Assembly: GCF_003334765.1 (NCBI RefSeq) | Contig: NZ_QOWT01000001.1 | Strand: one strand, 5' to 3' | Length of the DNA: 64,000 nucleotides | Source of the DNA: Escherichia coli | GTDB lineage: Bacteria > Pseudomonadota > Gammaproteobacteria > Enterobacterales > Enterobacteriaceae | In this document: positions 50,413 to 50,499 of the stretch, piece after piece | Numbering within the stretch: the stretch's first letter is position 1 | Layout: the number at the start of each line of letters is the position of its first letter | Program-made: the position numbers and the translations under genes | The notes under the pieces: model-generated | Database searches by the model: none | The model's input: only the letters and a program-made list of their open reading frames with translations | Told to the model about the DNA's origin: nothing

Positions 50413-50430
50413 TTTTTCTCCATAATTGGC
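50413..50430 (+). promoter_or_regulatory. BaeR box in spy promoter
   Basis: TTTTTCTCCATAATTGGC matches the BaeR binding consensus as I recall it. Confidence 0.6.
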
Positions 50431-50484
50431 GCAAAAGTGTTTTTTACACTTTCATTGTTTTACCGTTGCTCTGATTAATTGACG

Positions 50485-50499
50485 CTAAAGTCAGTAAAG
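50485..50499 (+). promoter_or_regulatory. CpxR-like direct repeat in spy promoter
   Basis: CTAAAgtcaGTAAA resembles GTAAA-N5-GTAAA with one mismatch and a 4-nt spacer. Confidence 0.3.

What the first reader, a model, noticed from the sequence alone, without database searches (positions are those of the whole stretch)
50413..50499. spy promoter carries an exact BaeR-box-like 18-mer plus a CpxR-like direct repeat
TTTTTCTCCATAATTGGC (50413..50430) matches the BaeR consensus as I recall it, and CTAAA-N4-GTAAA (50485..50499) approximates a CpxR site. This fits dual envelope-stress control, and the exactness of the BaeR match makes it a useful anchor to search for the same 18-mer elsewhere.
Basis: partly seen in the sequence, partly recalled or inferred. 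Interest (0 to 1): 0.25.

Follow-up and report, generated by a model that had tools for sequence, protein, structure and literature searches.

The report
Known BaeR box upstream of spy
The 18-base motif is the already-described BaeR binding box of the E. coli spy promoter, one of the sites the consensus was built from, while the proposed CpxR repeat is most likely the promoter's spacer and -10 element, with a better CpxR box about 35 bases upstream on the other strand.

Summary
The window is E. coli, and the finding lies in the astE-spy intergenic region. TTTTTCTCCATAATTGGC is at 50413..50430 exactly and is unique in the 64 kb window. It equals the published BaeR consensus TTTTTCTCCATDATTGGC. 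That exactness is circular. The E. coli mdtA and acrD boxes each differ from the consensus by one base, so spy simply carries the majority base in each variable column. An exact-pattern scan of about 100,000 species genomes found enterobacterial hits only at spy, so the exact 18-mer is a poor regulon probe. The box core is conserved at a fixed position in 10 Enterobacterales taxa.

CTAAA-N4-GTAAA is at 50485..50498, not ..50499. Its spacing is not the canonical N5, and CTAAA is not conserved. GTAAA overlaps an invariant TAnAnT hexamer (50495..50500), which I read as the -10 element. A better CpxR box, GTAAAACAATGAAAG, lies on the minus strand at 50463..50449. It is invariant in six close species, retained in four distant ones, and placed relative to the -10 exactly as the CpxR box of cpxP is.

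Control of spy by both Bae and Cpx is established in the literature. Verdict: already known, with low interest.

The parts
50413..50430 (+). BaeR box, 18-mer TTTTTCTCCATAATTGGC (NC_000913.3 1,825,781..1,825,764). It contains the footprint-derived core TCTCCATAA at 50417..50425.
   Evidence: Exact match to the published consensus. A weight matrix built without this site scores it 25.1 bits, the unique top hit in 64 kb. The core is kept in 10 taxa at a fixed position.
50449..50463 (-). Most likely CpxR box, GTAAAACAATGAAAG (GTAAA-N5-GAAAG).
   Evidence: It has the canonical N5 spacing with 2 mismatches. It is invariant in 5 of the 6 close species; E. whittamii differs at one position in the N5 spacer. 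It is kept as GTAAA-N5-G[A/C]AAG, 22-23 nt after the BaeR core, in all 10 taxa. It shares 12 of 15 bases, the same orientation and the same 31-nt distance to a TAnAnT hexamer with the cpxP CpxR box.
50485..50498 (+). In E. coli this is really a 9-bp-spaced repeat of [C/G]TAAAGT.
   Evidence: Read directly from the sequence. CTAAA varies between taxa: Salmonella CTAAG, Citrobacter AATAA, Erwinia TTCAG.
50495..50500 (+). Inferred -10 hexamer TAAAGT. The inferred transcription start is near 50507.
   Evidence: T, A, A and T at hexamer positions 1, 2, 4 and 6 are invariant in 9-10 taxa while both flanks vary. BaeR ChIP-exo peak_1 (window 50483-50517) covers it. The transcription start was not verified.
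50466..50483 (+). Degenerate BaeR-like box TTGCTCTGATTAATTGAC, ending in a conserved TTGAC 11 nt upstream of the -10.
   Evidence: It is the second-best match to the 18-mer in E. coli, Salmonella and Citrobacter and scores 7.8 bits with the weight matrix. Its geometry matches the mdtA box (12 nt to TATCAT) and the acrD box (14 nt to TACAGT). The assignment is inferred, not shown.
50347..50368 (+). Distal tandem TCTTCATAATC / TCTGCAAAATC with an 11-bp period. Both copies match TCTNCANAA exactly.
   Evidence: Found; shuffles of the intergenic region give P(at least 2 exact matches) = 0.002. It lies under BaeR ChIP-exo peak_2 (window 50351-50371). An exact or one-mismatch core sits 70-72 bp upstream of the main core in Salmonella, Citrobacter, Erwinia and L120; the second repeat copy is degenerate in Salmonella.
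50395..50403 (+). One-mismatch BaeR core TCTCCATCA, 22 bp upstream of the main core.
   Evidence: It is only partly conserved.
50569..51054 (+). spy coding sequence (161 aa periplasmic chaperone).

Best explanation
This is the well-studied promoter of the E. coli periplasmic chaperone gene spy. The 18-mer at 50413..50430 is the previously reported high-affinity binding box for the phosphorylated response regulator BaeR. It lies about 85 bp upstream of the inferred transcription start. It is one of the handful of sites the consensus was derived from, which is why it matches exactly.

That box sits between the BaeR box and the core promoter, in the same geometry as in the paralogous cpxP promoter.

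Shown here: sequence identity, uniqueness, cross-species conservation and rigid spacing of the modules. Also shown, from the literature and supplements read here, is in vivo dependence of spy on BaeR and CpxR. Inferred: which protein contacts which module, the -10 and transcription start assignment, and the activation mechanism.
For: The window is E. coli, and the astE-spy intergenic region is 100% identical to K-12.

The 18-mer is exact and unique in the window. The consensus is quoted. The mdtA and acrD boxes each have one mismatch. A weight matrix built from the other sites scores the 18-mer at 25.1 bits, against 15.8 bits for the next best hit in the window.

The module order and spacing are conserved in 10 taxa from Escherichia to Erwinia and Prodigiosinella. 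The order is BaeR core, 22-23 nt, CpxR box, 15-16 nt, TTGAC, 10-11 nt of variable sequence, TAnAnT, then 57-69 nt to the ATG (alignments).

cpxP carries TTTACGTTGTTTTAC followed by TAAACT exactly 31 nt later. spy carries CTTTCATTGTTTTAC followed by TAAAGT, also 31 nt later.

BaeR ChIP-exo peaks lie upstream of spy. Loss of baeR or cpxR lowers spy expression. The literature states that a BaeR site upstream of spy has been reported.
Against: The two BaeR ChIP-exo peaks at spy (window 50351-50371 and 50483-50517) flank the 18-mer but do not cover it. At mdtA, by contrast, a peak does cover the box.

No CpxR ChIP-exo peak was called at spy. That method recovered only about 9% of the classical CpxR sites, so the absence says little.

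The proposed CpxR box has two mismatches in its second half-site. No experimental transcription start or footprint could be read here.
Confidence: 0.75

Rival explanations
1. One reading: CpxR activates spy by binding the CTAAA-N4-GTAAA direct repeat at 50485..50498.
For: Two GTAAA-like pentamers are present. One-mismatch N4 sites are somewhat rarer than one per intergenic region. The GTAAA is kept in Escherichia, Citrobacter and Erwinia.
Against: The spacing is 9 bp, not 10 (one search gives the consensus). CTAAA is not conserved. The conservation pattern of the 3' element is T-A-n-A-n-T, including a T outside GTAAA, and not G-T-A-A-A. The site lies over the -10 and spacer, which would predict repression, yet CpxR activates spy. 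A better conserved box with N5 spacing exists 35 bp upstream.
Confidence: 0.1
2. BaeR acts in vivo mainly through other elements of this promoter, and the 18-mer is not the main occupied site. The other elements are the distal 11-bp tandem (50347..50368) and a degenerate box overlapping the -35 position (50466..50483).
For: The ChIP-exo peaks lie over the distal tandem and the core promoter, not over the 18-mer. Both tandem copies match the footprint-derived core TCTNCANAA exactly, and the N positions of that consensus are where the copies differ. The proximal element sits relative to the -10 as the mdtA and acrD boxes do.
Against: The 18-mer is by far the strongest match (25.1 bits against at most 7.8 bits). 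It is also the most conserved BaeR-type element, present in all 10 taxa, whereas the distal tandem is missing in two. ChIP-exo peaks can mark the outer borders of one large cross-linked complex. At cpxP, the CpxR peak likewise misses the perfect CpxR box. The literature counts one reported BaeR site at spy.
Confidence: 0.1
3. Both motifs are chance matches in an A+T-rich intergenic region and have no regulatory role.
For: The roughly 94 non-enterobacterial exact hits in the genome collection show that the 18-mer does arise by chance at about the expected rate in 298 Gb. The CpxR-like repeat is near chance level.
Against: For the 18-mer this is excluded by cross-genus conservation at a fixed position, by near-identical boxes at mdtA and acrD and by BaeR dependence of spy.
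Confidence: 0.02

Closest known systems
BaeR box of the E. coli Bae regulon. The Nishino et al. 2005 consensus is TTTTTCTCCATDATTGGC and the Yamamoto et al. 2008 core is TCTNCANAA; both are as quoted in PMC3799227.
   Same: There is an identical sequence upstream of the BaeR-dependent gene spy. This is the reported spy site itself, not merely a relative of it.
   Different: Nothing differs. The only caveat is that published ChIP-exo peaks flank the box rather than cover it.
CpxR box GTAAA-N5-GTAAA, for example cpxP GTAAAACAACGTAAA, yccA GTAAAGATGGGTAAA and ppiA GTAAAATTAGGTAAA.
   Same: The minus-strand site at 50463..50449 has N5 spacing and a perfect first pentamer. It shares 12 of 15 bases with the cpxP box, and has the same orientation and the same distance to the -10.
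   Different: Its second pentamer is GAAAG (GCAAG in some taxa), not GTAAA.
Pho-box type promoters of the OmpR/PhoB family, in which the activator box lies about 10 bp upstream of the -10 and replaces the -35. This is from my own knowledge of the PhoB literature.
   Same: The mdtA and acrD BaeR boxes end 12 and 14 nt upstream of a -10-like hexamer. The degenerate spy element ends 11 nt upstream.
   Different: BaeR binding to the proximal spy element was not shown, and its match to the box is weak (6 mismatches of 18).

Membership tests
BaeR box (18-mer at 50413..50430) | Match to the published consensus TTTTTCTCCATDATTGGC | tested here: met
   0 mismatches. The consensus is quoted.
BaeR box (18-mer at 50413..50430) | Contains the footprint-derived core TCTNCANAA | tested here: met
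   TCTCCATAA at 50417..50425.
BaeR box (18-mer at 50413..50430) | Lies upstream of a gene whose expression depends on BaeR | tested here: met
   From the literature and supplements read here: log2FC -5.76 in the baeR knockout, no chlorite induction in a baeR deletion, and spy::lacZ dependence on BaeR.
BaeR box (18-mer at 50413..50430) | Conserved in orthologous promoters | tested here: met
   The core is kept at 141-153 nt from the ATG in 10 taxa, with fixed spacing to the downstream modules.
BaeR box (18-mer at 50413..50430) | Occupied by BaeR in vivo | tested here: inconclusive
   The ChIP-exo peaks at window 50351-50371 and 50483-50517 flank the 18-mer but do not cover it.
BaeR box (18-mer at 50413..50430) | Protected by purified BaeR-P in vitro | not testable with these tools
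   The original footprint papers are not held.
   The spacer is 4 nt. In the N5 register there are 2 mismatches, which is the chance level.
   CTAAA varies between taxa. The conserved positions are those of TAnAnT.
   It overlaps the inferred -10 and the spacer. The transcription start itself was not verified.
CpxR box (alternative site 50449..50463, minus strand) | Two GTAAA-like pentamers separated by 5 nt | tested here: met
   GTAAA-ACAAT-GAAAG. The first pentamer is perfect and the second has 2 mismatches.
CpxR box (alternative site 50449..50463, minus strand) | Conserved, with the same geometry as a proven CpxR promoter | tested here: met
   Essentially invariant in 6 close species; E. 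whittamii has one change in the N5 spacer. It is kept in 4 distant taxa. It has the same 31-nt distance to TAnAnT as in cpxP.
CpxR box (alternative site 50449..50463, minus strand) | Bound by CpxR-P | tested here: inconclusive
   No CpxR ChIP-exo peak was called at spy, but that method recovered only 6 of 65 classical CpxR sites. The footprint paper is not held.
Sigma-70 -10 element (50495..50500) | TAnAnT hexamer about 7 nt upstream of a mapped transcription start | tested here: inconclusive
   The hexamer is invariant in 10 taxa. No transcription start data were found. The consensus promoter scan found no full -35/-10 pair, as expected for an activator-dependent promoter.

The most novel reading that the evidence does not exclude
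The spy promoter may be a rigid composite enhancer-like unit conserved across Enterobacterales, rather than one BaeR site plus one CpxR site. It would comprise a distal 11-bp tandem of BaeR cores (50347..50368), the strong 18-mer, a CpxR box, and a degenerate BaeR box that replaces the -35 in a pho-box-like position (50466..50483). The literature read here counts only one BaeR site at spy. On this reading, BaeR bound at the strong site would load a weak class-II site, with CpxR sandwiched between them. That would explain why both regulators are needed together under some stresses.
Probability: 0.3. Interest if true: 0.3.

Novelty: already known. Interest (0 to 1): 0.08.

Why it matters
It matters little as a discovery. 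spy regulation by BaeSR and CpxAR, and the BaeR box itself, have been in the literature and in RegulonDB for about twenty years.

The practical value of the check is cautionary, in three ways. An exact match to a consensus built from three or four sites says nothing extra when the site is one of them. Exact-string searches miss the other regulon members. Pentamer look-alikes of GTAAA in A+T-rich promoters can be the -10 element.

The conserved module map could help anyone who engineers spy-promoter biosensors, because it shows which bases are likely to matter.

Tried and rejected
Literature. I tried to read the primary papers and none is held: Nishino 2005, Rosner and Martin 2013, Price and Raivio 2009, Wang and Fierke 2013, Hagenmaier 1997 and Quan 2011. 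A full-text search for the exact site sequences found nothing. TCTNCANAA occurs in only one held paper.

Transcription start. I looked for a mapped spy start in the supplements of four transcriptome papers. There was no entry for the promoter. A RegulonDB-based supplement gave only site counts.

Genome scan. The exact-pattern scan of genome contigs returned exactly 100 loci, so the list may be capped. I therefore checked mdtA and acrD directly in K-12.

Population check. A 36-nt query over the 18-mer found nothing because the T-run is masked as low complexity. I replaced it with a 71-nt query.

Other taxa. Klebsiella and Enterobacter spy loci could not be reached, because the homology list was saturated by Salmonella. 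I bracketed them with closer and more distant taxa instead.

Rejected sites. TTGACG (50479-84) cannot be a -35 for the conserved -10, because the spacer is only 10 nt, and the hexamer 17 nt downstream of it is not conserved. A second GTAAA on the minus strand (50447..50443) is not conserved in Salmonella or in the distant taxa. A 15.8-bit weight-matrix hit at 23508 lies inside a coding sequence, so I took it as chance. Two regular expressions failed before the spacing table worked.

Full report
Where we are. The window is E. coli. The 329-bp stretch between the end of astE (50239) and the spy start codon (50569) is 100% identical to K-12 MG1655 and is present in 5,424 of 5,426 complete E. coli genomes. 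spy encodes the ATP-independent periplasmic chaperone. Window coordinate w maps to NC_000913.3 coordinate 1,876,194 - w.

Checking the observation. TTTTTCTCCATAATTGGC sits exactly at 50413..50430 on the + strand. It is the only match in the window even with three mismatches allowed, against 0.08 expected. The second element is also there, but it spans 50485..50498: CTAAA, then four bases, then GTAAA. The stated end is one base too far. The CpxR consensus quoted in the literature is GTAAA-N5-GTAAA. In that register the site has two mismatches, and such sites are at about the chance level in this window, 77 against 58 expected.

The BaeR box is real, already known, and its exactness is circular. 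Two papers quote the Nishino et al. 2005 consensus as TTTTTCTCCATDATTGGC. One of them also quotes the Yamamoto et al. 2008 core as TCTNCANAA. I fetched the K-12 mdtA and acrD upstream regions:
- mdtA carries TTTTTCTCCCTTATTGGC, one mismatch to the consensus.
- acrD carries TTTTTCTCCACGATTGGC, also one mismatch.

The consensus is therefore a majority rule over a handful of sites, and spy has the majority base in each variable column. A 2009 survey states that only four BaeR sites had been reported in E. coli, upstream of spy, mdt-bae, acrD and ycaC. The ycaC upstream region has no match within three mismatches.

The exact pattern, scanned over one genome for each of about 100,000 species, gave 100 loci, and that list may be capped. 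Only six loci were enterobacterial: four Escherichia species or strains beyond K-12, an E. coli, and a Citrobacter-labelled MAG. In every one of these the hit lies 156 nt upstream of spy. The rest are scattered, mostly A+T-rich, unrelated genomes, in numbers of the order expected by chance for 298 Gb. Salmonella (TTTTTCTTCACAATTGGC) and Citrobacter (TTTTTCTTCATAATTGGC) are missed by an exact search. A weight matrix built from the other sites, leaving out E. coli spy, scores the 18-mer at 25.1 bits. That is the single best site in the 64 kb window, with the next best at 15.8 bits inside a coding sequence.

Phylogenetic footprint. I collected orthologous spy upstream regions from nine taxa besides E. 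coli:
- E. albertii, E. whittamii, Salmonella enterica and two Citrobacter strains;
- Erwinia aphidicola and Prodigiosinella;
- two unnamed metagenomic relatives whose Spy is 64% and 58% identical to the E. coli protein.

All ten taxa, E. coli included, share one rigid layout (alignments). In order, it is:
- the BaeR core (TCTYCAnnn);
- 22-23 nt;
- a 15-nt box reading CTTKCAnnnnTTTAC on the coding strand;
- 15-16 nt;
- TTGAC;
- 10-11 nt of variable sequence;
- a TAnAnT hexamer;
- 57-69 nt to the ATG.

The 10-11 variable bases are GCTAAAGTCAG in E. coli, GCTAAGACGGT in Salmonella, GAATAAGCCAG in Citrobacter, GTTCAGCGCCG in Erwinia and TCTTCGCCGGA in L119. The invariant positions of that hexamer are T1, A2, A4 and T6, which is the signature of a sigma-70 -10 element and not of GTAAA. 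No experimental start could be found. The simple promoter scan finds no full -35/-10 pair, as expected for an activator-dependent promoter.

Where CpxR most likely binds. Read on the minus strand, the conserved 15-nt box is GTAAAACAATGAAAG (50463..50449). That is GTAAA-N5-GAAAG, with canonical spacing and a perfect first pentamer. It is essentially invariant in the six close species; E. whittamii has one change in the N5 spacer. It persists as GTAAA-N5-G[A/C]AAG in the four distant taxa. I fetched proven CpxR targets from K-12. cpxP has GTAAAACAACGTAAA, yccA has GTAAAGATGGGTAAA and ppiA has GTAAAATTAGGTAAA. The spy box shares 12 of 15 bases with the cpxP box, including the spacer, and lies in the same orientation relative to the gene. 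In both promoters a TAnAnT hexamer starts exactly 31 nt after the box, TAAACT in cpxP and TAAAGT in spy. Spy and CpxP are paralogous proteins, so a shared promoter geometry is unsurprising. An activator centred near -51 makes mechanistic sense, whereas one lying over the -10 does not. CpxR does activate spy.

In vivo data. Published ChIP-exo data (PMC7657598, Data Set S2) list two BaeR peaks at spy. They are 1,825,677-711 (window 50483-50517) and 1,825,823-843 (window 50351-50371). No CpxR peak is listed at spy. Neither BaeR peak covers the 18-mer, whereas at mdtA one peak covers the box and a second covers the -10 and start region. This is the main evidence against a simple picture.

Two points soften it. 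First, the CpxR peak at cpxP also misses the perfect CpxR box and sits over the core promoter. Peaks in this data set can therefore mark the borders of a larger cross-linked complex. Second, ChIP-exo recovered only 1 of 4 classical BaeR sites and 6 of 65 classical CpxR sites.

This is a tandem, TCTTCATAATC / TCTGCAAAATC, at 50347..50368 with an 11-bp period. Both copies match TCTNCANAA exactly. Three exact matches occur in this intergenic region, and shuffles give P(at least 2) = 0.002. An exact or one-mismatch core is retained 70-72 bp upstream of the main core in Salmonella, Citrobacter, Erwinia and L120. In Salmonella the second repeat copy is degenerate.

A further weak BaeR-like element, TTGCTCTGATTAATTGAC (50466..50483), ends in the conserved TTGAC 11 nt before the -10. 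The mdtA and acrD boxes end 12 and 14 nt before -10-like hexamers. From my own knowledge, this is the arrangement of pho boxes in PhoB-dependent promoters. Whether BaeR binds these extra elements is inference only.

Verdict. The BaeR half of the finding is correct but already known, and the exact match adds nothing. The suggested use of the 18-mer as a search anchor fails in practice. The CpxR half is most likely misplaced by about 35 bp and onto the wrong strand. Dual envelope-stress control of spy is textbook. Interest is low. The only mildly new material is the conserved multi-module map of the promoter.

Noticed in passing
window 50347..50368: An 11-bp tandem, TCTTCATAATC / TCTGCAAAATC. 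Both copies are exact matches to the BaeR core TCTNCANAA. It lies under the upstream BaeR ChIP-exo peak, and an exact or one-mismatch core is conserved 70-72 bp upstream of the main box in several genera. The literature read here counts only one BaeR site at spy.
   Followed up: partly
window 50466..50483 (TTGAC at 50479..50483): A conserved TTGAC lies only 10-11 nt upstream of the inferred -10, too close to be a -35. Together with the preceding TCTGATTAA it resembles a degenerate BaeR box. Its position matches that of the mdtA and acrD boxes relative to their -10-like hexamers.
   Followed up: partly
window 50294..50323: A strongly conserved block, TACAGATTAATCCTGG...TTGCTTTATT, is present in Escherichia, Salmonella and Citrobacter. 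It lies well upstream of all the assigned sites, and ACGGATTA also appears in Erwinia. No function could be assigned.
   Followed up: no
window 50246..50267: A hairpin, CCCGCAGAA-ATCA-TTCTGCGGG, lies just after astE. It is kept as a hairpin through compensatory changes in Citrobacter (CCCTCAGG...CCTGAGGG) and Salmonella. It is probably the ast operon terminator.
   Followed up: no
L122 (E. coli strain ECE170, NZ_CP196906.1), junction equivalent to window 50432: An IS1 element and unrelated genes (Hsp70 and J-domain proteins) replace everything upstream of window 50432. This strain keeps the CpxR box and core promoter but has lost the BaeR 18-mer, making it a natural deletion variant.
   Followed up: partly
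L111 (cpxR-cpxP intergenic region) versus window 50449..50500: The cpxP and spy promoters share the orientation of the CpxR box, 12 of 15 box bases, and an identical 31-nt distance to a GTAAAnT / TAnAnT element. This fits the two genes being paralogues.
   Followed up: yes
window about 51040..51135 (spy 3' end and terminator hairpin 51077..51127): A supplement lists a 97-nt small RNA, 'ecr1743', in the ves-spy interval, derived from the spy 3' end and credited there to Conway et al. 2014. My coordinate conversion from the older genome version is approximate.
   Followed up: no
E. coli genome collection: Two of the 5,440 copies of the spy upstream region are on records labelled as plasmids.
   Followed up: no
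L123 (ycaC upstream, K-12): ycaC is cited as the fourth reported BaeR site, but its upstream region has no match to the 18-mer consensus within three mismatches.
   Followed up: partly
window 50396..50401 and 50418..50423: There are two direct CTCCAT repeats 22 bp apart. A paper on the OmpR-family regulator DzrR of Dickeya reports recognition of two direct CTCCAT repeats (PMC10052836).
   Followed up: no
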